Positions 7,387 to 44,810 of a stretch of DNA of 64,000 nucleotides are shown here, in pieces; the stretch's first letter is position 1, and every line of letters begins with the position of its first letter. A program made the position numbers and the translations under genes. The stretch spans positions 225 through 64,224 of the forward strand of contig JACNJW010000024.1 in the NCBI GenBank assembly GCA_014382365.1, read 5' to 3'. This DNA is from SAR324 cluster bacterium. Its GTDB lineage: Bacteria > SAR324 > NAC60-12. The notes under the pieces are model-generated. The model was not told the DNA's origin, searched no databases, and saw only the letters and a program-made list of their open reading frames with translations.

Positions 7387-7387
7387 A

Positions 7388-7903: not shown

Positions 7904-7937
7904 TCCTCAACTTTGGAAATAACTAATTCAAATTAAT

Positions 7938-8969: not shown

Positions 8970-8982
8970 TATTTTTGAAATT

Positions 8983-23781: not shown

Positions 23782-23792
23782 GAGAATTTAAC

Positions 23793-25019: not shown

Positions 25020-25024
25020 GTCTC

Positions 25025-25870: not shown

Positions 25871-25902
25871 CTTTTCATAAACAATTATTAGTAAGTTTAA
25901 TT

Positions 25903-29010: not shown

Positions 29011-29838
29011 ATGCTAAGCTCTTTATTAAATTCCGAACTACTTTCTTTGTTTGCTTTATTGTTACTCTCAGGAGCATTTGCGGGATTACTGGCCGGCTTG
29101 TTCGGAGTAGGAGGTGGAATTATTTTAGTACCGGCCCTTTTTTATGTATTTGATGAACTGGGATATGCACAGGCACTGACTACACATCTTGCAGTTGGAA
29201 CTTCATTGGCAATCATTGTTCCAACCTCTATCACATCAGCTTGGTCACACTATAAACATGGTTCCGGCAACATAAAATTATTTCGCAGATTGGCACTTCC
29301 AGTAGCTGCAGGTTCTCTGACCGGCTCATTCCTGGCAGGCAGACTTAGCGGATCAGAACTTAAAGCAATTTTTGCAATACTGGCACTGCTGATTGCCTTA
29401 AACCTGTTTCAAAAAAAGCATTTTGTCCTAGGAACAGAACTACCTGTGCAGCTGAAACTTTGGAGTGTCACTGGAATGATAGGCCTGTTTTCGGCCATGA
29501 TGGGTATTGGTGGTGGAGTCTTTTTTACTTCTTATTTAACTGCTTACAGCTTACCATTGCTTAGTAGCGTTGGTACATCTGCAAGCTTAGGTTTAATGAT
29601 TTCCTTGCCCGGAGTAATCGGATATGTGTTTAGTGGCTGGAACAATCCGGATTTGCCTCCGCTAAGCTATGGATATTTCAATTTAGCCGGTTTTCTGTGC
29701 ATCTTACCAATGACCATAATTATGGTTCCGCAGGGTGCAAAACTAGCTCACAGTCTGAACAAAGACATTCTCAAACGTTGGTTTGCAGTTTTTCTGTTGC
29801 TGATGTCACTGCGCATGTTTTACAAAATATATTATTGA
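29011..29838 (+). CDS. TauE/SafE-family (DUF81) membrane transporter
   Basis: 275 aa, about 8 TM helices, Gly-rich repeats GVGGGIILVP / GIGGGVFF. Confidence 0.65.
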   Translation: MLSSLLNSELLSLFALLLLSGAFAGLLAGLFGVGGGIILVPALFYVFDELGYAQALTTHLAVGTSLAIIVPTSITSAWSHYKHGSGNIKLFRRLALPVAAGSLTGSFLAGRLSGSELKAIFAILALLIALNLFQKKHFVLGTELPVQLKLWSVTGMIGLFSAMMGIGGGVFFTSYLTAYSLPLLSSVGTSASLGLMISLPGVIGYVFSGWNNPDLPPLSYGYFNLAGFLCILPMTIIMVPQGAKLAHSLNKDILKRWFAVFLLLMSLRMFYKIYY

Positions 29839-29852
29839 GATTCCAATTACCT

Positions 29853-30482
29853 ATGAATAACTCTAATTCAAAACCTTTTGTGATGGGAATCAGTGGTGGT
29901 TCTGGTTCAGGAAAGTCAACCATTGTAAATGAGATCATTGAACGCTTAGGTCCGGAAAAAATCGCAGTACTCCACCACGACGCCTATTACCGGCACCGAC
30001 CGGAGCTCTCATTTGAAGAACGTACTAAAATAAATTTTGACCATCCGGATTCTTTGGAAACAAAGCTTTTAGTCAAACATCTCAAGCAATTGATCTCCGG
30101 AAATAAGGTTGAAGTTCCTATTTACGATTTCGCACAACATTTAAGAGATTCCAAAACCAAAAATATAGCACCATGTCAAATATTAATAGTGGATGGTATT
30201 CTGGTTTTGAGTAACAGTCAACTCTGTGAAATGATGGATTTAAAAGTTTTTGTTGATGTTCCTTCTGACTTAAGATTCATCAGGCGTTTGGAGCGGGATT
30301 TAAGTGAGCGAGGACGATCTGTAGAATCTGTGACAGAACAATATCTGACTACTGTGCGTCCAATGCACGAAATATTTGTGGAGCCCAGTAAACAGCAGGC
30401 CAACATTCTTATTCCTGGAGGTGGACATAATCTGAAGGCAGTTCAACTTTTGATAGCACATTTGCAGTCAATTCACTGCTAG
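29853..30482 (+). CDS. udk: uridine kinase
   Basis: P-loop GISGGSGSGKST at the N-terminus when started at the ATG at 29853. The upstream part of track ORF 29697.. overlaps the TauE gene and is rejected. Confidence 0.75.
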   Translation: MNNSNSKPFVMGISGGSGSGKSTIVNEIIERLGPEKIAVLHHDAYYRHRPELSFEERTKINFDHPDSLETKLLVKHLKQLISGNKVEVPIYDFAQHLRDSKTKNIAPCQILIVDGILVLSNSQLCEMMDLKVFVDVPSDLRFIRRLERDLSERGRSVESVTEQYLTTVRPMHEIFVEPSKQQANILIPGGGHNLKAVQLLIAHLQSIHC

Positions 30483-30515: not shown

Positions 30516-31889
30516 TTAGCGCTTTGTTTCATTTTCTAATAATTGAAGAATTTCTTTCCGTCGGCTGAAAATGGCATAATTAACTGCTGTTTTCTTCTCA
30601 AAATCAAAAATACTTGAATCCCCTCCATTATTCAGCAGTAAACCTACAGCACCTAATCTTCCACTGCCGGCAGCCAGCATCAATGCTGTTTGCCCTTTAT
30701 TATTCTGCATGTTTACTTCTGCACCACGTTTTAACAATTCCCATAAGGCCTGCAAATTTCCTCTCTCTGCGGCCCACATGAGAGCAGTCCAACCTTCATG
30801 AGTTCTGGCATTCAAATTTGCCCTGGCTTTTAATAGCATCGTCAGCATCGAATAATTTCCGTGAAATGCCGCCCACATCAGCGGAGAAAAATTACCCTTA
30901 TCCGGATTAGCACCATGACTCAACAATAATTTTGCGATTGAAACATCTTCCAGTGAAGTGGCCCAAACTAGTGGTGATTCATTCACATCGTCTACTATAT
31001 CTACATTTGCTCCATGAACAACCAGTAGTTTGACCAGTTCTTTATTTTGCAGTTTGACTGCCTGCATCAAAGGTGTGTATCCATTCTGATCCCTTAATTC
31101 CAAGTCAACACCTGCGTCAAGTAAGAGTTGGACTTTAACCAGGTTTTGTTTTTTAACTTCCAGCATCAGAGAACTATTTGTCGCTACTTGAGCAATTTCA
31201 TTTTTCTGCAATATCTTATTTTCTGCCAAAGTAGATGAGTTGTCTTTGAGGAGCACTTGCTCTATTTTTCCTGACTGATAATCCGGCCAGAGCAAAACCA
31301 GTAGCACAATGGAAACGCCAGTTAAACTAAAAAACATAATCCAACCAAACAGCATCCAGCTTGTATATTTTACTGGTACTGTTTCCACTACAGTACTTAC
31401 TGCGTCAGGCTGATTTTCAACTAGTTCTGGTTCCAGCATTTCAGCAGAATTTCGTTTTATTTGAATCTCTTCAATTAGTTGATTTCCTGAACTTGTCTGC
31501 TCTTTAGAAAAGAAGGGTGTTGAAAAACGAGAAAAATATTTTGGTTTAATCGTAAACGTGTCTTTTAACTGTTGTTGCTGTTCAATAATTTGTGGTCTTC
31601 CTTCAGAAATAGACAACAGAATTGCCGGGTCAAGCTGAGAACTTCCTGAAATTGTAATTGGGATATTTTGAAGGCGAACATGCCTGATAAGTAATCCCAG
31701 TAACTCCTGAGTATCATGGCTTATGACTTGCAGATTGTTTAAATCAAGATTAACCTTTTGTGAGTTACTTGAAGCTATACTCCCTTCAAGAGCATGCATT
31801 GCCGGCTGAATGTCAACATGCCTCAACTCATCAACTACTTTCAAAGTTGCAATTTGATTTTTTTCAGTGAGAACAATGCGATTCAACAT
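30516..31889 (-). CDS. STAS-like domain / single TM / ankyrin-repeat protein
   Basis: N-terminal ~95 aa resembles an anti-sigma-antagonist-like STAS fold (LKVVDELRHVDIQPAMHALEG...KVNLDLNNLQVISHDTQELLGLL). One TM (MLFGWIMFFSLTGVSIVLLVLLW). At least 5 C-terminal ankyrin repeats (TPLMQAVK..., SPLVWAT..., SPLMWAAFHGN..., TALMWAAERGN..., TALMLAAGSGR). Confidence 0.65.
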   Translation of the reverse strand: MLNRIVLTEKNQIATLKVVDELRHVDIQPAMHALEGSIASSNSQKVNLDLNNLQVISHDTQELLGLLIRHVRLQNIPITISGSSQLDPAILLSISEGRPQIIEQQQQLKDTFTIKPKYFSRFSTPFFSKEQTSSGNQLIEEIQIKRNSAEMLEPELVENQPDAVSTVVETVPVKYTSWMLFGWIMFFSLTGVSIVLLVLLWPDYQSGKIEQVLLKDNSSTLAENKILQKNEIAQVATNSSLMLEVKKQNLVKVQLLLDAGVDLELRDQNGYTPLMQAVKLQNKELVKLLVVHGANVDIVDDVNESPLVWATSLEDVSIAKLLLSHGANPDKGNFSPLMWAAFHGNYSMLTMLLKARANLNARTHEGWTALMWAAERGNLQALWELLKRGAEVNMQNNKGQTALMLAAGSGRLGAVGLLLNNGGDSSIFDFEKKTAVNYAIFSRRKEILQLLENETKR

Positions 31890-31999: not shown

Positions 32000-32998
32000 A
32001 TGGAAAAGTTTATGCGCAGATATCTTGTGCTGCAATGCATCTTTGCTTTAATAATGACTACTGCACAGGCAGAAGAAGCAGTTTTTTGGAAAGACAGGCA
32101 AATCTCTCAATTAGAACAGTTGACACCCAGTCTAGTTGAAGCAGTTCAAAGTATGCAGTCAAAGATTAGTTCAGTTGCAATTTCAAGCATTTCTTATGGA
32201 GATGCACTGCCAGCTAGTTTTCGCAAAGTTGCTAATGCCCGTTTACAACAAACACTAACTAATCTCCTTAAGTTAAAAGTCAGTATTTGCGAACCGTGCA
32301 GTCAAATTCGAACCGACATTTCCGGTAGTTTCCTTAAAATAAGCCGCGGAATTGCTGATGACAAATATCGCCGTGAAGCTGCCAAAGAATTGAATGTAAA
32401 GGGGTTTTTAGATATTGCTATATTTACCAGTGATGGAGACCAACTTTCAATTTCACTAAATGCATACGAGGCAAAAGATGGAGAAATTGTATTTTCTAAA
32501 ATAGTTACGGGTATGCCGCCCAAAAGTGGTTCCTACATTCACGCCTTTTACGGTAAAATGACAGTCCCTATTACATACACTAGCACATCAACTGGAAGCA
32601 GTACCTCAGTAGATCACCAGGCCAGAGTTTTGGGTGCAGAAAAGATGGTGAGACTTACAGATGACTGGAGTTTTACCGGAGGCGGAGCAATGTTGAGCGA
32701 TGATAATTCCAATCTAACAGAAAAATACGAAAAAGCAATTACAGGATTTTTAATTGATGGCACTATCAGTTATGATGTTTTCAATTTTGGTGGTGATCAG
32801 GTTGCATTATCTATGATTGCAGGACTGGGTATGATGACCGTGACACCTTTTAACAATCCTTCTTATTTCAAAACAGGTTTCAGTTTCTCAGTAGCAGAAC
32901 AATTAACTCTTAATTACCATTACCTGGCAATGCTGACAACTGATACAAGCGCCACAGCCTCTGGTGCATCAATTATTTCAATTGGCTGGAAATTCTAA
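32000..32998 (+). CDS. hypothetical secreted protein, probable outer-membrane beta-barrel
   Basis: Signal peptide (IFALIMTTAQAEEA). Alternating hydrophobic pattern toward the C-terminus. C-terminal ...SIGWKF ending in Phe, as in OM beta-barrels. Confidence 0.5.
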   Translation: MEKFMRRYLVLQCIFALIMTTAQAEEAVFWKDRQISQLEQLTPSLVEAVQSMQSKISSVAISSISYGDALPASFRKVANARLQQTLTNLLKLKVSICEPCSQIRTDISGSFLKISRGIADDKYRREAAKELNVKGFLDIAIFTSDGDQLSISLNAYEAKDGEIVFSKIVTGMPPKSGSYIHAFYGKMTVPITYTSTSTGSSTSVDHQARVLGAEKMVRLTDDWSFTGGGAMLSDDNSNLTEKYEKAITGFLIDGTISYDVFNFGGDQVALSMIAGLGMMTVTPFNNPSYFKTGFSFSVAEQLTLNYHYLAMLTTDTSATASGASIISIGWKF

Positions 32999-33006: not shown

Positions 33007-34359
33007 TTGAATTGTAACCAAATAAGTCGTGTCATGAAACTAACTGGCAAATTTAAATCATTTAGATCATTTTTAGCATATTTTTTAGTCAGTCTTATAC
33101 TGCTGAATGTACTTAACGGCTGCAAAACTACAGAAGAAACTGTAGAACCTGAGGTAGATCTTCCGGTAAAGAAAAAAGTGCTCTTCAATCAACAAACTGA
33201 TGGCGGCAAAAACTCTGTAACTGTGATTGAAGAAACACAAGGAAACAAAAGACTGCTGCGTGTGGTTTTACAACGCGGAGAACTGCAGTCAAACTTAATT
33301 CATCCAATTGACAGTCCAAACTTTGTAATAGCAGTACCTCTTCAGGATGCAACCAGCAAACGTTTAAGTTTAAAAACTGCTGCCTTCGAACAAAGTCTCA
33401 AAGTTAATATCGATCAATTGTTGTCACGTTATCTTTCGCCGGAACGTTTTAACGTATCTGTGATCATAAATTGGGACAAAAAATTGCTGCAGGAAGTACA
33501 GTTAAAAAACTTGCCCCTCAATTCTGATGCAGCAAAAAGTGATACTGATGATGATTTAACTGATGACGGTACAATTTCAGAAAGCACAAAGCGAAACCAT
33601 GAATTAAAAGAAGCCCTTAAAACAATTCAGGTTAGTGTCTTGCTCGATAACACTTTACCTGAAACGCAGGAACAATTTTTACGAAAATTAATACCTGCAC
33701 AGGAATTCTATTTTGCAGAACGTGGTGATACTGTTTCAGTCGAACGGACATCTTTTCCAAAACCATTTTCTGACAGTATTGCTCCATACGAGGAACAGAT
33801 TGTCCGGAGAAAATTACATGAGTTATTGGTAAAATATATTGCCAAAACTGATTTTGTGGTCAATGTAAAATTTTCTTTGATCCAAAGCAATGAAGAAACT
33901 AAAAATGCTCCACCTGCGTCCAGTAATATAAAAATGGAGATAAACTTACTCCTTGATGATACGGTTCTGCCAACTGTAGACACTTTCCTGAAAGAAGCAG
34001 TTCCACTGGCAATTAATTTTGATGCAGAGCGCGGAGATTCTCTTGCAATTATTCGTAAAAGTTTTCCTGAACGTTCTGACAGTTCAATCTCTCCAGAACA
34101 ACGAAGTGCACTAAAAGATTATCGAGTAAAAATACTTGAAGCTTTCCAGACAGGAGACTATGTTGCAGGACTCGAATGGGCAGAAAAGGGGTTGAAAGTA
34201 GCAGTGAAACGAACTGACAAAATTTTTATCTTAAAAATGAAAGGGTCTTTGCATTTTCTACTCGAAGAAAAAGATGAAGCTTTGGAGATGTGGCAGCATG
34301 TTCAGCGTTTAGATCCAAAAGATGAAGAAGTACGTCAAATGTTAAACAATCTGGAGTAA
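33007..34359 (+). CDS. hypothetical lipoprotein with internally duplicated domain and C-terminal TPR-like motif
   Basis: Probable start at the ATG at 33034 (MKLTGKF...LILLNVLNGC lipobox). Two copies of a ~90-aa module containing AERGD (FYFAERGDTVSVERTSFP / INFDAERGDSLAIIRKSFP). Terminus ALEMWQHVQRLDPKDEEVRQMLNNLE. Confidence 0.55.
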   Translation: MNCNQISRVMKLTGKFKSFRSFLAYFLVSLILLNVLNGCKTTEETVEPEVDLPVKKKVLFNQQTDGGKNSVTVIEETQGNKRLLRVVLQRGELQSNLIHPIDSPNFVIAVPLQDATSKRLSLKTAAFEQSLKVNIDQLLSRYLSPERFNVSVIINWDKKLLQEVQLKNLPLNSDAAKSDTDDDLTDDGTISESTKRNHELKEALKTIQVSVLLDNTLPETQEQFLRKLIPAQEFYFAERGDTVSVERTSFPKPFSDSIAPYEEQIVRRKLHELLVKYIAKTDFVVNVKFSLIQSNEETKNAPPASSNIKMEINLLLDDTVLPTVDTFLKEAVPLAINFDAERGDSLAIIRKSFPERSDSSISPEQRSALKDYRVKILEAFQTGDYVAGLEWAEKGLKVAVKRTDKIFILKMKGSLHFLLEEKDEALEMWQHVQRLDPKDEEVRQMLNNLE

Positions 34360-34362
34360 GGA

Positions 34363-35580
34363 ATGAGAAAATATACCGTTTCGGCTGCAGAGACATTTCT
34401 TTACAGAGTGCTGTTCCTGTCTCTGCTCATTTTTTGTTTGGCAGCTAATGCATCTGCACAGGTCACTTCAGAATCTGAAGATGAAGTACAAGCAGAAGAT
34501 CCTTCACCCGAAAAAGCTGCTGAAGCTGCTGAAAAAAAACAAACCCTTGAAGAATTACTTGCTGTTCCGTTTAACCAGATCAAGAAAGAGCAGGAAGAAG
34601 AAATTAGCAAATTTACTGATGGAAAAAGCGGAGATCTTCCAAACAGTAGTAAAAATGGAGATGTTAAATTACCTCCACCTCCGGAACAAAGAAAAGTAGA
34701 GCACGATTTAGAAAAACAGTTGGACGTTATTTTTCGGGAAAAGTTACCAAAGGAGTACGTTGGAGTTTCAGTAAGCATTCGTTATATTCTGGAAACCGTA
34801 CCTGTCACTAAACAGGACAAGAATATCTCAAAAATTAAATTACCTGGATTTGACAACAATGTCTGGGTGCCGACACAAACTGAAAAAATTGTTGGTATCG
34901 TAAATCAAGTACGTCCATACACTACAATTTTTGCAGTTGTAAACACTCCAGTTTCGTTGTTCAATGTTGAAGTACTGAGACAAACTCTCGATGAAAATAT
35001 TAAATTTCTCAATTTAACCGGCCGCGATGTACTCAAAATGGTGCATGTGCCTTTTACAACTCCAGCAAAATCTTCTGTAAATACTCTTGATAATGCAGCT
35101 GTTGAACTGGTTGAGACTGAGAATGATGATGCTGAAGAAGAAAAGTCAGCAGATTCTGAACTTGATAATAGTACTGAAAAAGAAGCTGAGACTAAAGAGT
35201 ATGCAGGGACATTAAATACAGAAGAGCCGGATGCAGCTAATAAAGAAAATGCTGGAGAAAAAACAGAAGAAAATACTGACGCAGTTTTGGAATCTGATCC
35301 TGAACCCCGTCGAATAGACATGAAAGCCAAAGTTGAAACCACACGCTATTTGCTGCAGGCACGAAAAACATACATGCAGGAAGACTATGATGCAGCAATT
35401 ACAGCACTCCGTAGAGCAATAGAACTTAATCCATTTTCTTCACAAGCTTTTGCCATGCTGGGTTCAATCTACTATAGACTTGGATGGAACAGAATGGCAT
35501 TAGAGAACTGGCAGCATGCTCTTAAACTTGATCCAACAAATGAGGGTCTGAAAAAATATCTCATGCGTTTTTCCAGGTAA
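34363..35580 (+). CDS. hypothetical periplasmic protein, acidic linker and C-terminal TPR-like motif
   Basis: Signal peptide (LLIFCLAANASAQV). Acidic low-complexity region (DDAEEEKSADSELDNSTEKEAETKE...). The terminus ALENWQHALKLDPTNEGLKKYLMRF is paralogous to the terminus of the preceding gene. Start is 4 nt after the previous stop. Confidence 0.55.
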   Translation: MRKYTVSAAETFLYRVLFLSLLIFCLAANASAQVTSESEDEVQAEDPSPEKAAEAAEKKQTLEELLAVPFNQIKKEQEEEISKFTDGKSGDLPNSSKNGDVKLPPPPEQRKVEHDLEKQLDVIFREKLPKEYVGVSVSIRYILETVPVTKQDKNISKIKLPGFDNNVWVPTQTEKIVGIVNQVRPYTTIFAVVNTPVSLFNVEVLRQTLDENIKFLNLTGRDVLKMVHVPFTTPAKSSVNTLDNAAVELVETENDDAEEEKSADSELDNSTEKEAETKEYAGTLNTEEPDAANKENAGEKTEENTDAVLESDPEPRRIDMKAKVETTRYLLQARKTYMQEDYDAAITALRRAIELNPFSSQAFAMLGSIYYRLGWNRMALENWQHALKLDPTNEGLKKYLMRFSR

Positions 35581-35582: not shown

Positions 35583-37544
35583 ATGACAACCAAATTTTAT
35601 TTTTATCAAATTAATAACAAACCAATTAAGCTACCTGTTATTTTCCTTCAGATATTTATCTGCACACTATTTTTGTTATGGCTCAGTCCATTTACCTCTG
35701 TACAGGCACAGGAACGTGTCAAGTCACTCAGTATCCGTCAATTTGAAATAGAAGAAGCAATCCGTAACGGACTCAAATATTATCTTGAACCCAAAGATTA
35801 TGTTTTACGGGTAAAATTGTTTGGTCAGGAGCGTGCAGTAAGTATGGCAAATGAAACCCTTCCGGGATTTGGTCAACTTAACGAACCTCCGAGTACCAGT
35901 AGTGCTAAATACTGGCAAATTACTCGAATGCGCGTAGATTTGGTCATGCATAAAGAAGTTTCACCTTCAGTAAATACTTATATTGGAGAAATCGTTCCAA
36001 TCCTCAGTGGACTTGATTATGAGCGTGGAGATGAGCTAATTTTTGTTCCAATTTTACCCAGCGATCCATTTCCTGGACAACTGGGCTCTGCTGCTGAGGA
36101 TTTACCTGACCCACTGGCTAAAGCTGTTCCTGAAGAAGTTCCTGCCGCAAAAATATCAGAAAAAGATAAAAAGCCGACAGAGGAAGAGGTAGATCCTCTT
36201 ACCGAAGAGACTGGTGAACCAAAAGAAGAATCACCAATTTGGCAGAGAATGAATGACATTGAAAAAATTCTTGCTGGAATGCTGCTCTTTTTGATCCTCT
36301 TATTTTTCTGGGTTCTCTGGAAACTGAGAAGAGTAAAAGCCGAGTCAACTGAACAAGCTGATTTGCCGGCCCTGATGCCGCCGAATCAACATACTCCACA
36401 ACTGCCTGCAGCAACTCCGCATGGTTTTGTCTCCTTTCCTGATCCAAATGATAAACTACTGGAAAATCAAGATCAACAGGAATCACAACTGAATGATGCT
36501 CTGCTCACAGCAGATAATGAGCGTCTCATACAGGAGATTGTTAAGCAACTCATAGGTCGAGATGACTGGAAACAAGAATTAGTCCATGAAATGTCCCGGG
36601 ACAAGCAGTCGATGGATATGTTGACACAGCTTATTGCTATTTTGGGAATGAATACTTCCAGAAAACTTTTTACAGGAACAATTCCACAAAAAACATTTTT
36701 GGATCTGGAAAAATTGGCTGAAGATGCCTCTCCTTCTCCAGAGGATGAAAATGCTGTTTTAAAAGATGTGCAGAAGTTTTTTCTCACCAAGCAGTTGACA
36801 GATCCTGAACAGAACAAAACAAACCCCTTTGGCTTCATGGACCAGTTGGCAACAGCTCAAATAGGATTTCTGGTAAAAGATGAGCCTGCAAAAATAAAAG
36901 CTTTTGTATTTGGACGTATGGAAAGTGAAGAGGCCGCAGAGTTGTTACGTGAACTTCCAAAAGATGAGCGTACAAAAGTTGCCTTAGAACTTGGTAAACT
37001 TCATGAATTTCCTCTGGAACTGGTTGAAAAAATTGGTTACAACCTTGCAGAAAAAGCTCGGCATGTTCCGGATCAGGGAACAGTTGGAGTTGATGGAATA
37101 AAATTCATTGCTGATGTTCTTGGCGACTTAGACTACAATACAAGACAAGAATTGATCAACGGATTAAGAACATCAGATATAAAACTTAGCGAAAATATTG
37201 AAAGTCATTGTTTTATTTTTGAGTCGATACCTGATGTCCCAAAAGATATTTTGCTGGAAGTTGTGCGAAAATTAAAACCTGATGATGTTATTACTGCAAT
37301 TTCAGGTTCAACTTCAAAAATCAAAGAAGCTGCAATCATGTGTTTTCCTGAAAAAAGCCGTGCTGCGCTAGTTTCCTCTTTAAAAACTAAATCTCCGGAT
37401 TCAGAAGAAATTCGTTCTGCACGAAAATTATTTACACAATCTATGCGGGATATGGCTGATGCAGGTCGGCTTAATCTTCAGGAAGTGAATACAAATTTTG
37501 CTAACAGCAGCAAAGAGCCTGAATCCAAAAAAGGACAATCCTAA
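35583..37544 (+). CDS. inner-membrane protein with periplasmic N-domain and cytoplasmic FliG-like (rotor middle/C-terminal) domain
   Basis: Signal peptide (…LSPFTSVQAQE). ~190-aa periplasmic part with DYERGDELIFVPILP. TM (ILAGMLLFLILLFFWVLWKL+RRVK). Cytoplasmic part has armadillo-like segments matching the FliG pattern: GRMESEEAAELLRELPKDERTKVALELGKL resembles the FliG N/middle G.E.AA.LL..L pattern, and DGIKFIADVLGDLDYNTRQELINGL...IESHCFIFESIPDVPKDILLEVVRKLKPDDVITAISGSTSKIKEAAIMCFPEKSRAALVSSL resembles the FliG GG...LN.LD...MFVFEDI...LLREV...L..AL.G....L...IL.NMS.R.A..L tract. Confidence 0.55.
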   Translation: MTTKFYFYQINNKPIKLPVIFLQIFICTLFLLWLSPFTSVQAQERVKSLSIRQFEIEEAIRNGLKYYLEPKDYVLRVKLFGQERAVSMANETLPGFGQLNEPPSTSSAKYWQITRMRVDLVMHKEVSPSVNTYIGEIVPILSGLDYERGDELIFVPILPSDPFPGQLGSAAEDLPDPLAKAVPEEVPAAKISEKDKKPTEEEVDPLTEETGEPKEESPIWQRMNDIEKILAGMLLFLILLFFWVLWKLRRVKAESTEQADLPALMPPNQHTPQLPAATPHGFVSFPDPNDKLLENQDQQESQLNDALLTADNERLIQEIVKQLIGRDDWKQELVHEMSRDKQSMDMLTQLIAILGMNTSRKLFTGTIPQKTFLDLEKLAEDASPSPEDENAVLKDVQKFFLTKQLTDPEQNKTNPFGFMDQLATAQIGFLVKDEPAKIKAFVFGRMESEEAAELLRELPKDERTKVALELGKLHEFPLELVEKIGYNLAEKARHVPDQGTVGVDGIKFIADVLGDLDYNTRQELINGLRTSDIKLSENIESHCFIFESIPDVPKDILLEVVRKLKPDDVITAISGSTSKIKEAAIMCFPEKSRAALVSSLKTKSPDSEEIRSARKLFTQSMRDMADAGRLNLQEVNTNFANSSKEPESKKGQS

Positions 37545-39118: not shown

Positions 39119-40477
39119 TCAAGTTCCACTCACAGTCAATGTTTCAATTTTAAAAGCTGGTGTGAGAATCGAACTCCGCTCATCGACTTCACTGCCAATC
39201 ATTTTTATATTTTTCAACATCTCGGAAAAAGTACCAGCAATTGTGAATTCGCTTACCGGCTCCGCCAATTTACCGTCACGAATCCAAATCCCCTGTGCAC
39301 CACGAGAAAAATCACCTGTCGCTATATTTGCTCCCTGACCAGACATGGATGTCAAATATAAGCCATTTTTCACACTTCCAATCAACTCCTCTTCAGAATA
39401 ATCCCCAAGTTTTAGAATCAGGTTGGAGATTCCTCCTGAATGTCCATTGGAAGTCATACCTAGTTTGTTTGCTGAATATGTTGAAAGCATATAATTTTTC
39501 AACACTCCATTTTCAATCAAAATCAATGGTTTTGCCTCTACTCCTTCATTGTCAAAATGACGACTGCCCAGCTTTCCGGGCAACAGAGGGTTGTCACTCA
39601 AATTGATTGTTGAAGCAGCAATTGACTCATTTAGCATGTTCAATAGGAATGACTGCTTACGGAATAAATTCTCTCCCATGAGTGCAGACGCAATTTTACC
39701 CAAAAAACTTTGTGCCATTTCAGGACTGAAAATTACCGGAACTTCCTGACTCAAAGGTTTAACTGCTCCAAGTTTTCGTAAAGTTCTATGGCAGGCTTTT
39801 TCAACAATTTCCTGGGCAGGTATCAAATTATTGTGAAATCGAGCGGCACTGTACCAACCGTCTGTTTGCTTACGTCCAATATTGGTTGAATCACTTGAAC
39901 CGGTTGACGTTGATTCAACATCATCTGCAATCATTGAGACACCGAGACTGTAGAGAGTTTTTGTCTCACCCTCAAGAAAGCCATTTGAATCTGCATGTAC
40001 CATGTGAGAAATACTGTCAGAGTAGAATGACTGATCTGTTCTTAGTCTTTTGTCAGAATTAACTGCCAGCATTTCCAAATCTAATGGAATTTGCACTTTT
40101 TCTTCTGTTGACAGTTTGTCAAAATTTGGATCTAGAAATTCTAGGTTAACCGCTGCACGACCTTGCAATTTAGGATCAGGCAGGCTGTAACAATCATCTT
40201 TTCCCATGTGAGGCAGCGCATCCAAAGTTGAACGAATTAACGGTGCCAGAGTCTCGAGCCGCAGATCATTGGAGGAAACCGTGGACCTTCGCTTGTTCAC
40301 AGAAACTGTCAGGTGAACTCCTGAAGAACCTGATTCCTGAAGAGATTCAATTTTCTTGTCACGGACATCAACTTGAAAAGAGGTTGAGTTGGCAAGCGAT
40401 ACCGAAACTAGATCGGCTCCATCACTGACTGCCAAGTCAATGATGTCTCTTGCAACAGTTTTATATTTTTCTAACAT
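39119..40477 (-). CDS. pmbA: TldD/PmbA-family metalloprotease
   Basis: 452 aa with the PmbA/TldD architecture. Conserved C-terminal region (GDFSRGAQGIWIRDGKL...). Confidence 0.75.
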   Translation of the reverse strand: MLEKYKTVARDIIDLAVSDGADLVSVSLANSTSFQVDVRDKKIESLQESGSSGVHLTVSVNKRRSTVSSNDLRLETLAPLIRSTLDALPHMGKDDCYSLPDPKLQGRAAVNLEFLDPNFDKLSTEEKVQIPLDLEMLAVNSDKRLRTDQSFYSDSISHMVHADSNGFLEGETKTLYSLGVSMIADDVESTSTGSSDSTNIGRKQTDGWYSAARFHNNLIPAQEIVEKACHRTLRKLGAVKPLSQEVPVIFSPEMAQSFLGKIASALMGENLFRKQSFLLNMLNESIAASTINLSDNPLLPGKLGSRHFDNEGVEAKPLILIENGVLKNYMLSTYSANKLGMTSNGHSGGISNLILKLGDYSEEELIGSVKNGLYLTSMSGQGANIATGDFSRGAQGIWIRDGKLAEPVSEFTIAGTFSEMLKNIKMIGSEVDERSSILTPAFKIETLTVSGT

Positions 40478-41041: not shown

Positions 41042-41791
41042 ATGTTGGGAAAGAAAGTCATAAATTTAAAACAATACTTCTTGGTAGGCTTGTTTGTATC
41101 AGCATTTTTTTTGGCATTAAATACTACCACAGCATACGCAGAAGAACAGCCCATTGCCTTCAGTCATAAACTTCACACAGTACAAAACGGAATTGCCTGT
41201 CAATATTGCCACCTTTATGCACGCCGCTCTTTTTCATCAGGAGTTCCACCTGTCAGTACCTGTATCGGTTGTCATGGTCCCAAAGAACAAAAATTAGTGC
41301 AGCCTGACAGCAAAGAGGTCAATAAGATGCGAACTTTTTGGTCTGATAAAGAACCTATTCCATGGGTCAAAATACATGACGTACCGGATTTTGTTCGTTT
41401 CCCTCATAAAGAGCACATTAATGCCGACAGCAATCGATTACTGGATGATGCCGGAGCAGGATGTGACACTAAAAATGCACCTCGCAGTTTAGAATGCAAG
41501 TTGGCTCAGTTCAGGACTGGAGGTGACCAACGTTGTCTGGCCTGTCATGGAGATGTTCGTCAAATGGAAGTAATCACACAGGTTGATGAAAATTTTGGTA
41601 AAATGGGCTGGTGTATGGAGTGTCACCTGCAGGTGAAAGGTGCCAAAGAAAGGAAACGTACAGGAAGTACAATTGCCGGTTGGTATCACGCCAAAGAAAT
41701 GGACAAAAAACGTGAAGCTGCAATTGGATTAGTAAATGAAAAAGGTTATCACAACCCAAATATGCTTGACTGCTACACCTGCCATTATTAA
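41042..41791 (+). CDS. actA: alternative complex III subunit ActA, pentaheme cytochrome c
   Basis: N-terminal TM anchor and five CxxCH motifs (CQYCH, CIGCH, CLACH, CMECH, CYTCH). First gene of the actABCDEF series. Confidence 0.85.
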   Translation: MLGKKVINLKQYFLVGLFVSAFFLALNTTTAYAEEQPIAFSHKLHTVQNGIACQYCHLYARRSFSSGVPPVSTCIGCHGPKEQKLVQPDSKEVNKMRTFWSDKEPIPWVKIHDVPDFVRFPHKEHINADSNRLLDDAGAGCDTKNAPRSLECKLAQFRTGGDQRCLACHGDVRQMEVITQVDENFGKMGWCMECHLQVKGAKERKRTGSTIAGWYHAKEMDKKREAAIGLVNEKGYHNPNMLDCYTCHY

Positions 41792-41806
41792 AGCTAAGAG
41801 AGAAAA

Positions 41807-44779
41807 ATGAAGAAGGGCCTCAGCCGAAGAAATTTATTCAAATATGTGGGTGCCGGCAGTGCAACTGCTGTTGTTGCTGGTTGTGAAAACAAACCGGAAA
41901 AATTAATCCCCATGTTGGTTCCGCCAACGGATTATGAATATACTCCGCAGACTGCATACCAATACATGACCACCTGCAGAGAATGTGATGCAGCTTGTGG
42001 AATGATGGTCACAACCCGGGAACATCGAGCCCAGAAAGCAGAAGGAAACCCCAATCACCCGCTAAATCAAGGGGCACTCTGCGCAAAAGGGCAAGCTTCA
42101 TTACAAACTCTCTACAATCCCAGCAGACATGCCTATCCACTGGCAGATGGGAAAAAGATTCCATGGCAAGAAGGCCTGCAACAGTTTTCTGCACTGACTC
42201 AAACAGCAGCAGGTGCAATAGCTTACCTGGGTAAACCTGCCGTTGGCAGTGAGGGAGACTTTCTGGACGAATGGCTGCAGGCGGCAGGCGGAGGAAAACG
42301 TGTAGATTTTGAGCTGTTGTCACAAAACAGTCAGGTTGAGGCAAATCAAATTGCTTTTAACCGTGCCGATGTTCCAGAATACGCTTTTGAAAAAGCAGGT
42401 TTAATCCTCAATTTCAGTGCCGATTTTCTCGAAACGTGGGGGAATCCTGTCGAAAATGCACGACGTTTTGCAGATATGCATGCCTACCAAAAAGGCAACA
42501 AAAATAAATTCGTCCATATCTCTCCACACGTTTCTCTGACAGGAGCAAAAGCTGACCGTTGGGTAGTAATTAATCCGGGAACCGAAGGCTTGGTCGCTTT
42601 AGCAATTGCTGCAGTTATTCAGCAGGAAAATGGAAGTCACACATTCCTCAAGGCTTACCTCGAATCATACTCTCCGGAAAACGTGGCAGAGGAAACAGGA
42701 GTTTCTGCTGAAGCCATTAGAGGTCTTGCAAAAGAGGCACTGGAACATGGACCTTTACTGGCAATTGGCGGTGGCAATGTATCTGCAACAAAGCAGAGTG
42801 TTGAAACTCTGGTTGCAGTAAATATATTAAATGCTGTCTCCGGAGCACTTGACAAGACACTTCGTTTTTATAACCAAACTGCTGTTAAAAAATCAACTCA
42901 TCAGGATCTGTTAGAGTTAATCAGTGATCTCGATGCCGGAAAAATAAAACTACTCATCATTGACGATTCCAATCCTGTTTATGCTCTTCCTCCTTCAATG
43001 GGATTTGCCGAAGCTATAAAGAAGACTTTCGTGGTCAGCCTGGCCTCCCAAAAGAGTGAAACAACACACGAGGCAAATCTGGTTTTACCTGCATTGACAG
43101 CCTATGAAAGCTGGGGAGATGCATTCCCGCGAAGTGGAGTAAAAAGTATTCAACAGCCTGTGATGTCAGCAGTGAATACCTTTGACGCAAAAGCCCGTGA
43201 AGATATTTTAATAAATACAGTTCAAAGCATAGATAAAACGGCATTCTCTGGAAATTCGAATTATCTGGATTTTCTTCAAGATAAATGGAGTAAAATTCAA
43301 CGTGAACTTGGAGACACAAGAAGTTTCGAAAATTTCTGGATTAGTATTTTAGAAAACGGTGGGATCTATGAGAAACCAAAATTCGCTCGAACAGCTTTAA
43401 GCAGAAAAGTTACTGCTGTCAAAGTCAGTAGTCCTGAGTTAGTCGGCCAAGAAGGTTTGACGCTGTTGCCCACAACTTCACTTCTTCTAGGAGACGGTAG
43501 TGGCGCCAACAAGCCCTGGTTGCAGGAAGTTCCCAACCCGATGAGTCAGATTGTATGGGATTCATGGGTTGAAATTAATCCGGACACAGCACAAAAACTT
43601 GGAATCAATGACCGTGCGATAATTGAGGTAAAGACACCTCATGGCTCTGTACAGGCTACTGCTTATTATCATTTTGGTATTCACAGGGATGCAATTGCAA
43701 TCCCTATGGGACAAGGACATCAACATTCCGGAGAAGTGGCTGACGGTTTCGGAATCAATGTGATGCAACTCTTGCCTGGCGAATTTGACAACGCCGGTAA
43801 TCTAAGCTTCGTTGGTGTACAAGCTGAGCTGAAGCTGATCAATGAAAAATCGTACACCGTTAATACAGACGGAAATGCCAGACAGTTGGGTCGGGAGATT
43901 GCTGCAGCAACTACTGTTGAAGAATTGGCACATCCTGAAAATCATGGAAGTGCACACAAGCGTCCAACTGAATTTTATCCTGACCGTTCAGAAACAGCTG
44001 GTTATTACAAACCATACCGCTGGGGAATGACGATTGATTTGGACCGTTGTAACGGTTGTTCCGCCTGTGTTGTTGCCTGCTATGCAGAAAACAATATACC
44101 AGTTGTTGGAAAAATCAGAACTGCAATTGGGCGAGAAATGTCCTGGATTCGTATGGAACGTTACATTGAAGGCTATGGCGACGATTTTGAAACACGTTTT
44201 TCTCCAATGCTTTGTCAGCAATGCGGAAATGCCGGTTGCGAAACAGTATGTCCTGTCTATGCCACATATCATAATCCTGAAGGATTGAACGCAATGATCT
44301 ATAACCGTTGTGTTGGTACACGCTACTGTTCTAATAACTGTGCATATAAGGTGAGACGATTCAACTGGTTTAACTACGAATTTCCTGCTCCGCTGGATCA
44401 ACAATTGAATTCGACAATCACTACACGAGAAGTTGGAGTGATGGAAAAATGTACATTCTGTGTACAGCGTATTAAAACTGCAAAATATGATGCAAAAGAT
44501 CTTAGCCGTGATTTGGAAGATGGTGAAGTTTTGACAGCATGTCAGCAGACTTGTCCCACGAAAGCCATTACCTTTGGAAACTTGATGGATCCGGAGAGTA
44601 AGGTTGCCAAAAGCGCTTTGCGGGAAACTGCAGATAAAAGGGACCGCCAATATGAAGTGCTTGCTGAATTAAATTACAAACCTGCCATTACCTACCTGAA
44701 AAAAGTTAACACCAGAGAGGTTCTCGGTCACAATTCAGAAAACCACGATTCTCATCAAAATTCAGAAAATCACGGATAA
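41807..44779 (+). CDS. actB: alternative complex III subunit ActB (fused molybdopterin-oxidoreductase-like B1 + 4Fe-4S ferredoxin-like B2)
   Basis: Tat signal RRNLFKYVGAGSATAVVAGC. MopB-like domain without an obvious Mo-ligand context. C-terminal multi-cluster Cys motifs (CNGCSACVVAC, CQQCGNAGCETVCP, CVGTRYCSNNC, CTFCVQRI). Confidence 0.85.
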   Translation: MKKGLSRRNLFKYVGAGSATAVVAGCENKPEKLIPMLVPPTDYEYTPQTAYQYMTTCRECDAACGMMVTTREHRAQKAEGNPNHPLNQGALCAKGQASLQTLYNPSRHAYPLADGKKIPWQEGLQQFSALTQTAAGAIAYLGKPAVGSEGDFLDEWLQAAGGGKRVDFELLSQNSQVEANQIAFNRADVPEYAFEKAGLILNFSADFLETWGNPVENARRFADMHAYQKGNKNKFVHISPHVSLTGAKADRWVVINPGTEGLVALAIAAVIQQENGSHTFLKAYLESYSPENVAEETGVSAEAIRGLAKEALEHGPLLAIGGGNVSATKQSVETLVAVNILNAVSGALDKTLRFYNQTAVKKSTHQDLLELISDLDAGKIKLLIIDDSNPVYALPPSMGFAEAIKKTFVVSLASQKSETTHEANLVLPALTAYESWGDAFPRSGVKSIQQPVMSAVNTFDAKAREDILINTVQSIDKTAFSGNSNYLDFLQDKWSKIQRELGDTRSFENFWISILENGGIYEKPKFARTALSRKVTAVKVSSPELVGQEGLTLLPTTSLLLGDGSGANKPWLQEVPNPMSQIVWDSWVEINPDTAQKLGINDRAIIEVKTPHGSVQATAYYHFGIHRDAIAIPMGQGHQHSGEVADGFGINVMQLLPGEFDNAGNLSFVGVQAELKLINEKSYTVNTDGNARQLGREIAAATTVEELAHPENHGSAHKRPTEFYPDRSETAGYYKPYRWGMTIDLDRCNGCSACVVACYAENNIPVVGKIRTAIGREMSWIRMERYIEGYGDDFETRFSPMLCQQCGNAGCETVCPVYATYHNPEGLNAMIYNRCVGTRYCSNNCAYKVRRFNWFNYEFPAPLDQQLNSTITTREVGVMEKCTFCVQRIKTAKYDAKDLSRDLEDGEVLTACQQTCPTKAITFGNLMDPESKVAKSALRETADKRDRQYEVLAELNYKPAITYLKKVNTREVLGHNSENHDSHQNSENHG

Positions 44780-44810
44780 CAAAATGATTCAAGGAGCATA
44801 CGGAGCATAA

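What the first reader, a model, noticed from the sequence alone, without database searches (positions are those of the whole stretch)
35583..37544. Signal peptide, periplasmic domain, TM and FliG-like cytoplasmic domain in one polypeptide
Canonical FliG is a ~330-aa soluble rotor protein with no TM. This 653-aa protein places a FliG middle/C-like region (CFIFESI-PDVPKDILLEVVRKLK..., analogous to the torque-helix-proximal part) behind one TM helix. An N-terminal ~190-aa periplasmic domain shares an ERGD-containing motif with the two upstream periplasmic proteins. The closest conceptual relatives are the MgtE N-domain and a FliF-FliG fusion, but the topology and length fit neither.
Basis: partly seen in the sequence, partly recalled or inferred. 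Interest (0 to 1): 0.8.

Follow-up and report, generated by a model that had tools for sequence, protein, structure and literature searches.

The report
Membrane-anchored FliF–FliG fusion rotor protein
This gene encodes a natural fusion of a cut-down flagellar MS-ring protein (FliF) to the rotor protein FliG; in relatives across uncultured bacteria it sits in a conserved cluster with MotA/MotB stator, TPR and outer-membrane proteins but no other flagellar genes, which suggests an undescribed small rotary machine related to the flagellar motor.

Summary
The 653-aa ORF at 35583-37544 (+) is real, in a SAR324 bacterium. The protein is a truncated FliF fused to a complete FliG. The periplasmic domain is a single FliF RBM3-type ring-building motif. 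The cytoplasmic part aligns to full-length FliG (N, M and C). It is the last gene of a tight four-gene operon with an outer-membrane-type protein (orf1), a lipoprotein holding two more RBM3-like domains plus TPR (orf2), and a TPR protein (orf3).

About 280 representative relatives (E<=1e-10) share the architecture. In divergent relatives the gene is next to a flagellar-type MotA/MotB pair, an orf1 homolog and a TPR protein, and never next to flagellar export, rod or hook genes. Two loci carry an unfused version with separate FliF-like and FliG-like genes.

Best reading: the rotor subunit of an undescribed MotAB-driven envelope-spanning machine.

Caveats:
- This window has no MotAB; the ortholog lies elsewhere in marine SAR324, near a flagellin gene.
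- This protein has lost most torque-helix charges.
- The output of the machine is unknown.

The parts
32000..32998 (+). orf1 (332 aa), first gene of the operon. It has a signal peptide (…TAQA|EE), an N-terminal periplasmic domain with a conserved CxxC, and a C-terminal half that looks like an outer-membrane beta-barrel (it ends …GWKF). It belongs to the 'X' family found in the module in other lineages.
   Evidence: sequence. (weak OMP_b-brl hit, E 0.003, below threshold). (hhalign of SAR324 orf1 homologs against the ~360-aa X proteins of L037-L043: probability 99%, E 4e-18). (conserved position).
33007..34359 (+). orf2 (450 aa): a lipoprotein-type signal (…LNGC), two FliF-RBM3-like domains each ending in ERGD (aa 110-255 = nt 33334-33771; aa 264-363 = nt 33796-34095), and a C-terminal TPR (aa ~380-448 = nt 34144-34350).
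   Evidence: Pfam YscJ_FliF_C, 27.6 bits against a gathering score of 23.8, aa 174-250. (ERGD at 238 and 341; blastp to the target's periplasmic domain E 2.8e-10). (family RBM HMM E 5.6e-18 and 1e-12). (TPR).
34363..35580 (+). orf3 (405 aa): a signal peptide (…ANASA|Q), a degenerate RBM3-like domain (aa 108-237 = nt 34684-35073; LPGF at 160, TGRD at 219), an acidic low-complexity stretch, and a C-terminal TPR (aa 328-396 = nt 35344-35550).
   Evidence: TPR_2, TPR_11 and TPR_1 above threshold. (RBM HMM only E 0.011; the LPGF and GRD motifs). (conserved position directly upstream of the fusion gene in all loci).
35583..37544 (+). The target: a 653-aa FliF(RBM3)-FliG fusion and the last gene of the operon. 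Its ATG is 2 nt after the orf3 stop, with an AGG 8 nt upstream.
35634..35708 (+). N-terminal hydrophobic segment (aa 18-42) ending in VQA|QE. It is either a signal peptide or the equivalent of FliF TM1.
   Evidence: hydropathy, charge. (the A-Q-E-R/K junction is conserved in the clade). Cleavage itself was not testable.
35709..36071 (+). Periplasmic FliF RBM3-type ring-building motif (aa 43-163), with alpha-beta-beta-alpha-beta topology. It has two long strands (73-85, 109-122), an invariant LPG loop (93-95) and an RGD strand (148-150).
   Evidence: pLDDT mostly >90, secondary structure. (Foldseek to FliF RBM3/S-ring structures, probability 1.0, target TM-score 0.45-0.5). (L93, P94, G95, G149 and D150 are invariant or nearly so in 56 diverse members)..
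36255..36332 (+). Transmembrane helix (aa 225-250), the equivalent of FliF TM2, followed by KLRRVK. It is flanked by disordered Pro/Glu-rich linkers (aa 164-222 periplasmic, 251-287 cytoplasmic).
36444..36812 (+). Helical cytoplasmic domain (aa 288-410). It corresponds to the FliF C-terminal FliG-binding segment plus a FliG_N-like domain.
   Evidence: 322-column alignment to full-length FliG 3hjl. (hhalign to the canonical FliG_N start, E 5e-5, low probability). (FliF-C-like motif [GS]xP…W in at least 25/105 relatives; weak in this protein).
36822..37076 (+). FliG middle domain (aa 414-498). The Glu of EHPQ is kept (E434, family-invariant), but HPQ is replaced by P-A-K.
   Evidence: FliG_M E 1.4e-10. 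(1lkv alignment)..
37161..37478 (+). FliG C-terminal domain (aa 527-632), including the CFIF hinge (the MFxF equivalent) and the torque-helix equivalent FPEKSRAALVSSLK. That helix lacks the canonical acidic pair.
   Evidence: FliG_C E 4.3e-13..

Best explanation
The gene encodes the rotor subunit of a small envelope-spanning machine that is a homolog of the flagellar rotor/stator core but lacks the flagellar export apparatus, rod, hook and switch.

Shown:
- The protein is an end-to-end fusion: (signal/TM1), one FliF RBM3 ring-building domain, TM2, then FliG N-M-C.
- The architecture is shared by a large family.
- The gene always travels with a TPR protein, and usually with an orf1-type outer-membrane protein and a flagellar-type MotA/MotB pair.
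- An unfused FliF-like plus FliG-like form of the same module exists.

Inferred:
- Like FliF, the RBM3 domains oligomerise into a periplasmic ring on the inner membrane, placing a ring of FliG domains under the membrane.
- MotA5B2 units anchored to peptidoglycan push on the FliG_C torque helix and turn the ring.
- The ring's LPG-tipped beta-hairpins and the extra RBM3/TPR proteins (orf2, orf3) couple this motion, or the force, across the periplasm to the orf1 outer-membrane protein.
- Loss of the HPQ part of EHPQ means there is no FliM/FliN switch, so the device would be unidirectional and unregulated by CheY.

The output is unknown. Surface or adhesin movement, envelope maintenance and transport are all possible.

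In this marine SAR324 lineage the stator genes have moved elsewhere in the genome, and the torque-helix charges have diverged.
For: Identity:
- Pfam FliG_M and FliG_C above their gathering scores.
- PDB phmmer to T. maritima FliG_MC, E 1e-13 over residues 414-630.
- AF2 model with mean pLDDT 83.
- Foldseek to full-length FliG (E 4e-10, 322 columns) and to FliF RBM3 rings (probability 1.0).
- Family RBM HMM against the RBM3 of a true FliF-FliG fusion, E 1.9e-7.

Family: 281 representatives at 50% identity with E<=1e-10. Nearly all full-length ones show the layout signal, RGD, TM, FliG.

Module:
- The orf1-orf2-orf3-fusion order is kept in every SAR324-type locus with enough DNA, down to 28% identity.
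- MotA_ExbB plus MotB_plug/OmpA genes abut the cassette in 11 of those loci and in L046.
- In 6 of 8 very distant members (~19-26% identical to the target where reported) the cluster is fusion + X + TPR + MotA + MotB in shuffled orders.
- orf1 is homologous to X (hhalign 99%).
- An unfused FliF-like/FliG-like version with MotAB and TPR genes occurs in L049 and L050.

Stator type:
- Full-length matches to MotP/PomA/MotA and to MotD/MotS, not to ExbB/TolQ/ZorA.
- Channel residues and the MotB Asp are kept.
- The L037 MotA keeps PomA R88 K89 E96 E97 exactly.

Rotor interface:
- The R281 equivalent is R/K in 88/92 non-SAR324 fusions.
- Unfused FliG-likes keep K264, R281, D288 and D289.

No flagellar context: tblastn with FliL/N/O/P/Q, flagellin and full FliF finds nothing in about 24 non-marine module loci, while the positive control L036 lights up.

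Operon: 2-8 nt gene spacing and no internal terminators.
Against: - No MotA/MotB gene lies in this 64-kb window or next to the cassette in the close marine clade.
- The marine ortholog of the module-type MotAB lies 1.3 kb from a flagellin gene, and the window's cassette is 6 kb from fliL-fliL-fliN-fliO-fliP-fliQ. The stator could therefore simply be the flagellar one.
- In this protein and its SAR324 clade the torque-helix acidic pair is Ser/Ala/Thr, and the R281 equivalent is K/Q/N. No clean charge covariation with the linked MotA proteins was seen.
- Ring formation, rotation and the rotor-stator contact are inferred from homology. No multimer modelling was possible.
- The taxonomy of most family members is unknown, so independence from flagella at genome level is not shown.
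- orf1's beta-barrel is only a weak prediction.
Confidence: 0.6

Rival explanations
1. Flagellar-motor accessory. The cassette builds periplasmic and outer-membrane scaffolds and an extra inner-membrane ring around the true flagellar basal body. Analogues would be Vibrio FlgO/FlgP/FlgT plus MotX/MotY, or Campylobacter/Helicobacter FlgP/PflA/PflB. The FliG-like ring would recruit, park or stabilise the ordinary flagellar stators.
For: - In marine SAR324 the module-type motAB lies next to a flagellin gene.
- The cassette is 6 kb downstream of fliL-fliL-fliN-fliO-fliP-fliQ, an arrangement conserved in L001-L015.
- TPR proteins, lipoproteins and OM proteins are typical motor accessories (established knowledge of PflA/PflB, FlgP, FlgO).
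- The stators are flagellar-type with a plug.
Against: - Outside the marine clade, no flagellar gene lies within 8-10 kb of about 24 module loci.
- The protein carries a complete FliF-RBM3 plus FliG N-M-C, that is, a second rotor rather than a scaffold, and an unfused FliF-like/FliG-like pair exists.
- No known motor accessory contains FliG or FliF domains; literature searches found none.
- Two Bacteroidota-like contexts (a Por_Secre_tail neighbour in L040, HmuY in L043) hint at non-flagellates.
Confidence: 0.2
2. Static stator-docking platform. The ring does not rotate. The FliG-like domains hold MotAB units so that their proton-driven rotation or conformational work is delivered to the TPR/OM partners in a Tol-Pal or TonB-like way. 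Alternatively, the protein sequesters stators as a brake or reservoir.
For: - The overall design of IM motor, TPR protein and OM protein resembles Tol-Pal/CpoB and Agl-Glt (established knowledge).
- Torque-helix charges are poorly conserved in the SAR324 clade.
- L047 links the module to MoxR-DUF58-VWA genes.
Against: - The FliG hinge elements are strongly conserved (second Gly of the GG hinge 102/104; final Phe of MFxF 89/104). So is the R281 equivalent outside SAR324, and so are all the main torque charges in the unfused branch. This is what is expected of a working rotor-stator interface.
- The RBM3 ring is the rotating part in flagella.
Confidence: 0.12
3. It is the organism's real, if unusual, flagellar FliF/FliG: the MS ring and the upper C-ring of the swimming flagellum are made by one polypeptide.
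For: Engineered FliF-FliG fusions work in Salmonella and Vibrio (PMC10941966, PMC11481574). A natural full-length fusion exists (P0260). The organism has flagellar genes.
Against: - RBM1 and RBM2, which seat the export gate, are absent.
- The HPQ part of the FliM-binding EHPQ motif is lost family-wide, while a FliN gene is present in the window.
- The gene is never in a fliE-fliF-fliG-fliH type cluster.
- TIGR00207 scores 61 against a cutoff of 226.7.
Confidence: 0.04
4. MgtE-type Mg2+-sensing or other non-motor use of the FliG/MgtE_N armadillo-like fold.
For: A sub-threshold Pfam MgtE_N hit (24.3 against 25.9, 49 residues). Precomputed MgtE_N labels appear on many homologs.
Against: FliG_M and FliG_C are above threshold, and PDB and Foldseek hits are all FliG. 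There are no CBS or MgtE channel domains. MotAB linkage is seen in relatives.
Confidence: 0.01

Closest known systems
Flagellar MS-ring protein FliF plus rotor protein FliG (canonical, separate proteins)
   Same: The RBM3 ring-building fold with long beta-strands and an RGD strand just before TM2. FliG N, M and C domains, including the conserved Glu of EHPQ, a Gly hinge and an MFxF-type hinge. Relatives are linked to flagellar-type MotA/MotB.
   Different: One polypeptide rather than two. RBM1 and RBM2 are absent. The N-terminal segment looks cleavable. HPQ (FliM binding) is lost. Torque-helix charges are largely lost in this protein. It is not encoded with export-gate, rod, hook or switch genes. 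Its partners are TPR and OM proteins.
FliF-FliG fusions: engineered in Salmonella and Vibrio (PDB 8z4d/8z4g; PMC10941966, PMC11481574) and natural full-length (P0260, 887 aa)
   Same: End-to-end FliF then FliG in one chain. The engineered ones form rings and, from established knowledge, support motility.
   Different: Those keep the whole FliF periplasmic region (RBM1-3) and canonical FliG motifs (EHPQTIA, MFTFEDI), and they belong to real flagella.
Chlamydiaceae short FliF with a C-terminal FliG_M-like domain (Bergeron 2015, bioRxiv 10.1101/023564)
   Same: A truncated FliF periplasmic region fused to a FliG-like cytoplasmic domain, proposed to act outside a flagellum.
   Different: About 330 aa, with RBM2 plus one more RBM and only a FliG_M-like segment. 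It is proposed to work with the T3SS, and no MotAB/TPR/OM module is described. Direct sequence comparison was not done here.
Envelope-spanning ion-driven motor systems with TPR and OM partners: Tol-Pal/CpoB, Myxococcus Agl-Glt, Bacteroidota GldLM-GldKN
   Same: The general design is an inner-membrane 5:2-type ion motor, periplasmic TPR or lipoprotein adaptors, and an outer-membrane component.
   Different: Those use TolQR/ExbBD/GldL-type motors and have no FliG or FliF domains. Here the motor is flagellar-type MotAB with a plug, and the partner is a FliG ring. The similarity is one of design, not of family membership.
RBM ring proteins of T3SS and sporulation (SctJ/PrgK, SctD/PrgH, SpoIIIAG)
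   Same: The alpha-beta-beta-alpha-beta ring-building motif that oligomerises into membrane-proximal rings.
   Different: The best structural matches here are to FliF RBM3 specifically. None of those proteins carries FliG.

Membership tests
FliG (flagellar rotor/switch protein) | FliG middle domain (Pfam PF14841) | tested here: met
   41.7 bits against a gathering score of 25, aa 426-498.
FliG (flagellar rotor/switch protein) | FliG C-terminal domain (Pfam PF01706) | tested here: met
   49.9 bits against 23.3, aa 527-632. 1lkv alignment E 1e-13.
FliG (flagellar rotor/switch protein) | FliG N-terminal domain that binds the FliF C-terminus | tested here: inconclusive
   The Pfam FliG_N hit is sub-threshold and falls on the M region. 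However, Foldseek aligns about 320 columns to full-length FliG, and hhalign of aa 330-410 to the canonical FliG_N start gives E 5e-5 at low probability.
FliG (flagellar rotor/switch protein) | Equivalog-level score (TIGR00207 fliG) | tested here: not met
   61 bits against a cutoff of 226.7.
FliG (flagellar rotor/switch protein) | EHPQR motif that binds FliM | tested here: not met
   The Glu is kept (94/104 in the family) but HPQ becomes P-A-K here and is variable family-wide.
FliG (flagellar rotor/switch protein) | Charged torque-helix residues contacting MotA (E. coli K264, R281, D288, D289, R297) | tested here: not met
   They are S, K, S, S and gap/D in this protein. The family outside SAR324 has R/K at the R281 position in 88/92 and acidic residues at 288/289 in about 40%. 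The unfused branch keeps four of the five.
FliG (flagellar rotor/switch protein) | Soluble protein of about 330 aa with no membrane segment | tested here: not met
   653 aa with two hydrophobic segments.
FliF (MS-ring protein) | RBM3 / S-ring domain | tested here: met
   Foldseek to 8z4g, 6sd1, 8ftf, 6scn and others at probability 1.0. Family HMM against the RBM3 region of FliF-FliG P0260, E 1.9e-7. The target itself gets no Pfam YscJ_FliF_C hit, but its paralogous domain in orf2 does.
FliF (MS-ring protein) | RBM1 and RBM2 (the PrgK-homology region that seats the export gate) | tested here: not met
   Only one structured periplasmic domain of about 120 aa.
FliF (MS-ring protein) | Two transmembrane helices flanking the periplasmic region | tested here: inconclusive
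   Two hydrophobic segments are present. The first ends in an AxA-like site and may be cleaved. No signal-peptide predictor was available.
FliF (MS-ring protein) | C-terminal cytoplasmic helix that binds FliG_N | tested here: inconclusive
   The motif [GS]xP..h...hh..W occurs in at least 25/105 relatives and in the unfused FliF-like tails. It is weak in this protein (IGRDDWKQELV). Its resemblance to the Salmonella FliF C-terminus is recalled from memory, not tested.
MgtE N-terminal domain | Pfam PF03448 above its gathering score, with CBS and MgtE channel domains | tested here: not met
   24.3 bits against 25.9, over 49 residues. No CBS or MgtE domains.
MotAB-FliG rotor-stator pair | A cognate MotA/MotB encoded with the rotor gene | tested here: inconclusive
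   Absent from this window and from the close marine clade. Adjacent in 12 SAR324-type loci, in 6/8 distant loci and in both unfused loci. Marine SAR324 has the ortholog elsewhere in the genome.
MotAB-FliG rotor-stator pair | Physical contact and torque transfer between MotA and FliG_C | not testable with these tools
   No multimer modelling or experiment was available.
Chlamydiaceae FliF-FliG fusion | About 330 aa, RBM2 plus a second RBM, and a FliG_M-only cytoplasmic domain | not tested
   Known only from the paper. No Chlamydia sequence was compared. The lengths and domain content differ from the description.

The most novel reading that the evidence does not exclude
The fusion, its TPR and outer-membrane partners and a dedicated MotAB form an autonomous rotary nanomachine independent of the flagellum. 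It would be a 'minimal motor' made only of an MS-ring-like/FliG rotor and a stator, widespread in uncultured diderm bacteria. It is either a surviving relative of the pre-flagellar rotor-stator core or a stripped-down derivative put to a new envelope function.
Probability: 0.4. Interest if true: 0.9.

Novelty: new variant of a known kind. Interest (0 to 1): 0.8.

Why it matters
How the flagellar rotor and stator came together, and whether FliG/FliF/MotAB can work without the type III export apparatus, rod and filament, are long-standing questions. Recent surveys note rotor proteins in non-motile genomes and ask whether they have another function (PMC12199754), without naming a system.

This family offers a concrete gene set on which that question can be tested: FliF-RBM3/FliG (fused or split), MotA, MotB, a TPR protein and an OM protein. 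It has hundreds of divergent members and is very abundant in the ocean through SAR324.

If the module is autonomous, it adds a new class of ion-driven envelope machine and a comparison point for flagellar evolution. If it is a flagellar accessory, it would be the first known accessory ring built from FliF and FliG domains.

It also corrects automated 'flagellar motor switch protein FliG' annotations of these proteins.

Tried and rejected
- The profile search with the 56-sequence family alignment against the 5.8-billion-protein set returned only marine SAR324 sequences and no taxonomy.
- Three cluster look-ups on 30 representatives gave only automated names and three vague organism labels.
- The genome scan with the very diverse alignment failed for lack of conserved stretches. 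The narrower alignment reached only SAR324-type genomes.
- PADLOC gave no hit to the fusion, its partners or the MotA proteins, only generic ZorB/MotB similarity, so a Zorya-type defence system is rejected.
- NCBIfam has no model for the fusion, X or the TPR partners.
- The plasmid collection holds only canonical FliGs.
- Promoter and terminator scans were at or below chance.
- A search for charge covariation between the MotA rotor-facing helix and the FliG-like torque helix across linked pairs gave no clean pattern.
- PDB profile search of the orf1/X family gave only non-significant LpoB-like hints.
- MgtE_N membership was considered and rejected.
- A true-flagellar FliF/FliG role was considered and judged unlikely.
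Full report
THE OBSERVATION

An identical protein is deposited as a hypothetical protein of a SAR324 cluster bacterium MAG, and hundreds of marine sequences are 76-81% identical.

Hydropathy shows two hydrophobic segments. Residues ~18-42 follow a Lys-rich start and end in VQA|QE. Residues ~225-250 are followed by KLRRVK. This places residues 43-222 in the periplasm and 251-653 in the cytoplasm.

Pfam finds FliG_M (aa 426-498) and FliG_C (aa 527-632) above their gathering scores, and MgtE_N just below its own. The fliG equivalog model scores 61 bits against a cutoff of 226.7. The described layout is therefore real and far beyond chance.

WHAT THE PROTEIN IS

An AlphaFold2 model built on a 56-sequence family alignment is confident (mean pLDDT 83).
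- The periplasmic domain folds alpha-beta-beta-alpha-beta, with two long strands and a loop carrying a family-invariant L-P-G.
- A disordered Pro/Glu-rich linker, a long TM helix and a second disordered linker follow.
- Residues 288-647 are all-helical.

Foldseek against the PDB gives two sets of matches.
- Full-length FliG: 3hjl at E 4e-10 over 322 aligned columns, plus 8vib_G, 8umx_B and others.
- The RBM3/S-ring part of FliF: 8z4g, 6sd1, 8ftf, 6scn and others, at probability 1.0 and target TM-score 0.45-0.5.

Sequence agrees with structure.
- PDB phmmer aligns residues 414-630 to T. maritima FliG_MC at E 1e-13.
- An HMM of the family's periplasmic domain hits the RBM3 region of a genuine 887-aa FliF-FliG fusion (P0260) at E 1.9e-7.
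- Residues ~330-410 align with the start of canonical FliG_N.

The order RGD strand, TM, FliG is the order found in FliF followed by FliG. The protein is therefore a truncated FliF, with RBM3 only and no RBM1 or RBM2, fused end-to-end to a complete FliG.

WHICH FliG FEATURES SURVIVE

Counts are from 104 representative family members aligned to T. maritima FliG.

Kept:
- the Glu of EHPQ, in 94/104;
- the second Gly of the Gly-Gly hinge, in 102/104;
- the last Phe of the MFxF hinge, in 89/104.

Not conserved: the HPQ residues that bind FliM.

Torque helix:
- The R281 equivalent is R/K in 88/92 members outside the SAR324 clade.
- The D288/D289 equivalents are acidic in about 40% of those members.
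- In this protein the five classical charges read S, K, S, S and gap/D, and the whole SAR324 clade lacks the acidic pair.

THE OPERON IN THE WINDOW

The target is the last of four + strand genes separated by 8, 3 and 2 nt, with no internal terminator-like sites.
- orf1 (32000-32998) has a signal peptide, a conserved CxxC, a weak OMP beta-barrel hit and a C-terminal Phe.
- orf2 (33007-34359) has a lipobox. It holds two copies of the same RBM3-like domain, each ending in ERGD (HMM E 5.6e-18 and 1e-12; Pfam YscJ_FliF_C above threshold), and a C-terminal TPR.
- orf3 (34363-35580) has a signal peptide, a degenerate copy of the domain (LPGF and TGRD; E 0.011) and a TPR.

The 'shared ERGD motif' is thus a shared FliF-type ring-building domain. 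It is clear in orf2 and marginal in orf3.

THE FAMILY AND ITS GENE NEIGHBOURHOOD

An exhaustive search of 1.84 billion representative proteins finds 1875 hits at E<=1e-3 and 281 at E<=1e-10. Most are 550-730 aa. Nearly all full-length ones have the same layout: N-terminal signal, RGDxhxh, TM, FliG-like region.

SAR324-type genomes. A genome scan recovered 35 related loci. The orf1-orf2-orf3-fusion order is kept wherever enough DNA is available, down to 28-30% identity. The flanking genes are kept only in the close marine clade.

In 11 of the more divergent loci a MotA_ExbB gene and a MotB_plug/OmpA gene lie directly upstream of orf1 or directly downstream of the fusion. A twelfth case is L046.

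Eight very distant members (~19-26% identical to the target where reported) were looked up individually.
- Six have fusion + an X protein of ~360-390 aa + a TPR protein + MotA + MotB, in shuffled orders (L037, L039, L040, L041, L043; L047 lacks X).
- Two lack an adjacent MotAB (L042, L048).
- X is homologous to orf1 (hhalign 99%, E 4e-18).

The unfused form. Two further loci carry a split version: X-like, three TPR proteins, MotA, MotB, a FliF-like protein (504 or 630 aa; family RBM HMM E 1e-18 and 4e-14), then a 310-aa FliG-like protein whose start overlaps the FliF-like stop. These unfused FliG-like proteins keep K264, R281, D288 and D289, and have also lost HPQ.

THE STATORS

The linked MotA proteins match MotP/PomA/MotA models over their full length. 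The linked MotB proteins match MotD/MotS models and include the plug. All score below the equivalog cutoffs, and none resembles ExbB, TolQ or ZorA.

Channel-lining motifs and the MotB Asp are conserved. The L037 MotA reproduces PomA's rotor-contact motif exactly (R88 K89 … E96 E97). Other lineages keep a basic-then-acidic pattern in more variable form. I found no clean charge covariation between paired MotA and FliG-like sequences.

IS IT PART OF THE FLAGELLUM?

The evidence points both ways.

For a flagellar link:
- The window also encodes fliL, fliL, fliN, fliO, fliP and fliQ about 6 kb upstream, and this arrangement is conserved in the marine clade.
- Marine SAR324 encodes orthologs of the module-type MotA (63-67% identical, same 322-aa length). 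They form a separate motAB operon 1.3 kb from a flagellin gene.

Against a flagellar link:
- tblastn with FliL/N/O/P/Q, flagellin and full-length FliF finds nothing in about 24 module loci outside the marine clade. The same queries light up the one true flagellar locus that was fetched by accident, L036.
- The module encodes a second complete FliF-type/FliG-type rotor, fused or split, which is not what known motor accessories look like.
- The FliM-binding motif is lost family-wide.

On balance I favour an autonomous machine that uses a flagellar-type stator. In marine SAR324, sharing of the stator with the flagellum cannot be excluded.

MECHANISM

Shown: the domain identities, the family-wide architecture, the conserved module and the flagellar-type stator.

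Inferred from the known behaviour of FliF RBM3, FliG and MotAB:
- The RBM3 domains form a periplasmic ring.
- The tethered FliG domains form a ring under the membrane.
- MotA5B2 units turn that ring.
- The LPG-tipped hairpins and the extra RBM3/TPR proteins connect it to the orf1 outer-membrane protein.

With no FliM/FliN site the device would lack a switch. The output is unknown. The static-platform model, in which the ring holds stators that do work on the TPR/OM partners, remains possible, especially for the SAR324 clade with its altered torque helix.

COMPARISON WITH WHAT IS KNOWN

The closest relatives by descent are FliF and FliG themselves.

Engineered FliF-FliG fusions form rings (PMC10941966, PMC11481574; PDB 8z4d/8z4g appeared among the hits). 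One natural full-length fusion was seen (P0260).

The nearest published precedent for a truncated FliF carrying a FliG-like domain outside a flagellum is the ~330-aa Chlamydiaceae protein (Bergeron 2015). It differs in length and domain content, and no MotAB/TPR/OM module is described for it.

By design, though not by family, the module recalls Tol-Pal/CpoB, Agl-Glt and GldLM-GldKN.

Six literature searches found no description of this module.
- A 2025 survey notes rotor proteins in non-motile genomes and leaves their function open.
- A 2025 MotAB phylogeny does not discuss FliG-like partners, as far as a term search of the paper shows.
- Databases label these proteins 'FliG' or 'FliG C-terminal domain-containing protein'.

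VERDICT

Novelty: a new variant of a known kind (the flagellar rotor-stator core in a new architecture and context). There is a substantial chance that the module is a new kind of machine.

Main uncertainties:
- independence from the flagellum;
- whether the ring rotates;
- the output of the machine;
- the taxonomy of most members;
- in this particular organism, the remote stator genes and the diverged torque helix.

Noticed in passing
window 22059-26175 (+): A partial flagellar block: fliL, a second fliL paralog, fliN (152 aa), an unusually long fliO-like gene (408 aa), fliP and fliQ (25903-26175). It is followed directly by lon. There is no fliM between fliL and fliN, and no fliR or flhB after fliQ.
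   Followed up: partly
L049 6487-8933 and L050 6109-8930: An unfused form of the module. A separate FliF-like protein (RBM3 domain, then a 100-200-aa charged coiled-coil-like periplasmic stretch, TM, then a FliG-binding-like tail) is followed by an overlapping 310-aa soluble FliG-like gene. That gene keeps most torque-helix charges but lacks HPQ. Three TPR genes and motAB lie upstream.
   Followed up: partly
L044/L045 10001-11609; L018 4139-5107: The SAR324 module-type MotA is 319-322 aa and carries an extra segment of about 45-55 aa between TM1 and TM2, which is a short periplasmic loop in PomA/MotA. In marine SAR324 this motAB pair is a stand-alone operon 1.3 kb from a 536-aa flagellin gene.
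   Followed up: partly
window 30516-31889 (-): A 457-aa protein with an N-terminal region, one TM helix (~177-204) and five or more ankyrin repeats. It is transcribed divergently from the operon, and the neighbourhood is conserved in the marine clade (L001-L015), with a partial copy in L013.
   Followed up: no
L047 13496-17039: In one distant member the module (TPR, fusion, MotA, MotB) is followed on the same strand by MoxR-type AAA ATPase, DUF58, DUF4381, VWA and a pilin-like N_methyl protein. This is a Bat/MoxR-VWA-type set. L046 also has an N_methyl pilin-like gene just after motB.
   Followed up: no
window 39119-40477 (-) and L047 7527-8858 (-): A PmbA/TldD-family metallopeptidase lies close to the module both in the marine SAR324 clade and in a very distant member. 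This may be coincidence.
   Followed up: no
L018 7082-7723 and equivalents in L021-L034; window 33094-33342: Divergent SAR324-type loci have an extra TPR lipoprotein of about 213 aa between orf1 and orf2. Its N-terminal part weakly matches the N-terminus of window orf2 (E 5e-4), so window orf2 may be a fusion of two ancestral genes.
   Followed up: partly
window 41042-48733 (+): A complete-looking Alternative Complex III (act) gene set: a multihaem cytochrome c, a 990-aa molybdopterin-type/FeS fusion, NrfD-like ActC, ActD, a cytochrome c and one further membrane protein.
   Followed up: no
window 29697-30482 (+): The listed GTG-started uridine kinase ORF overlaps the end of the TauE gene by about 140 nt. 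The kinase domain starts at about residue 62, so the real start is probably the internal Met near 29850.
   Followed up: no
window 6451-9561 (+): Four consecutive + strand ORFs (311, 171, 343 and 192 aa). Three have no Pfam match at E<=1e-5 and the last has a bacterial Ig-like (Big_5) domain. Their function is unknown.
   Followed up: no
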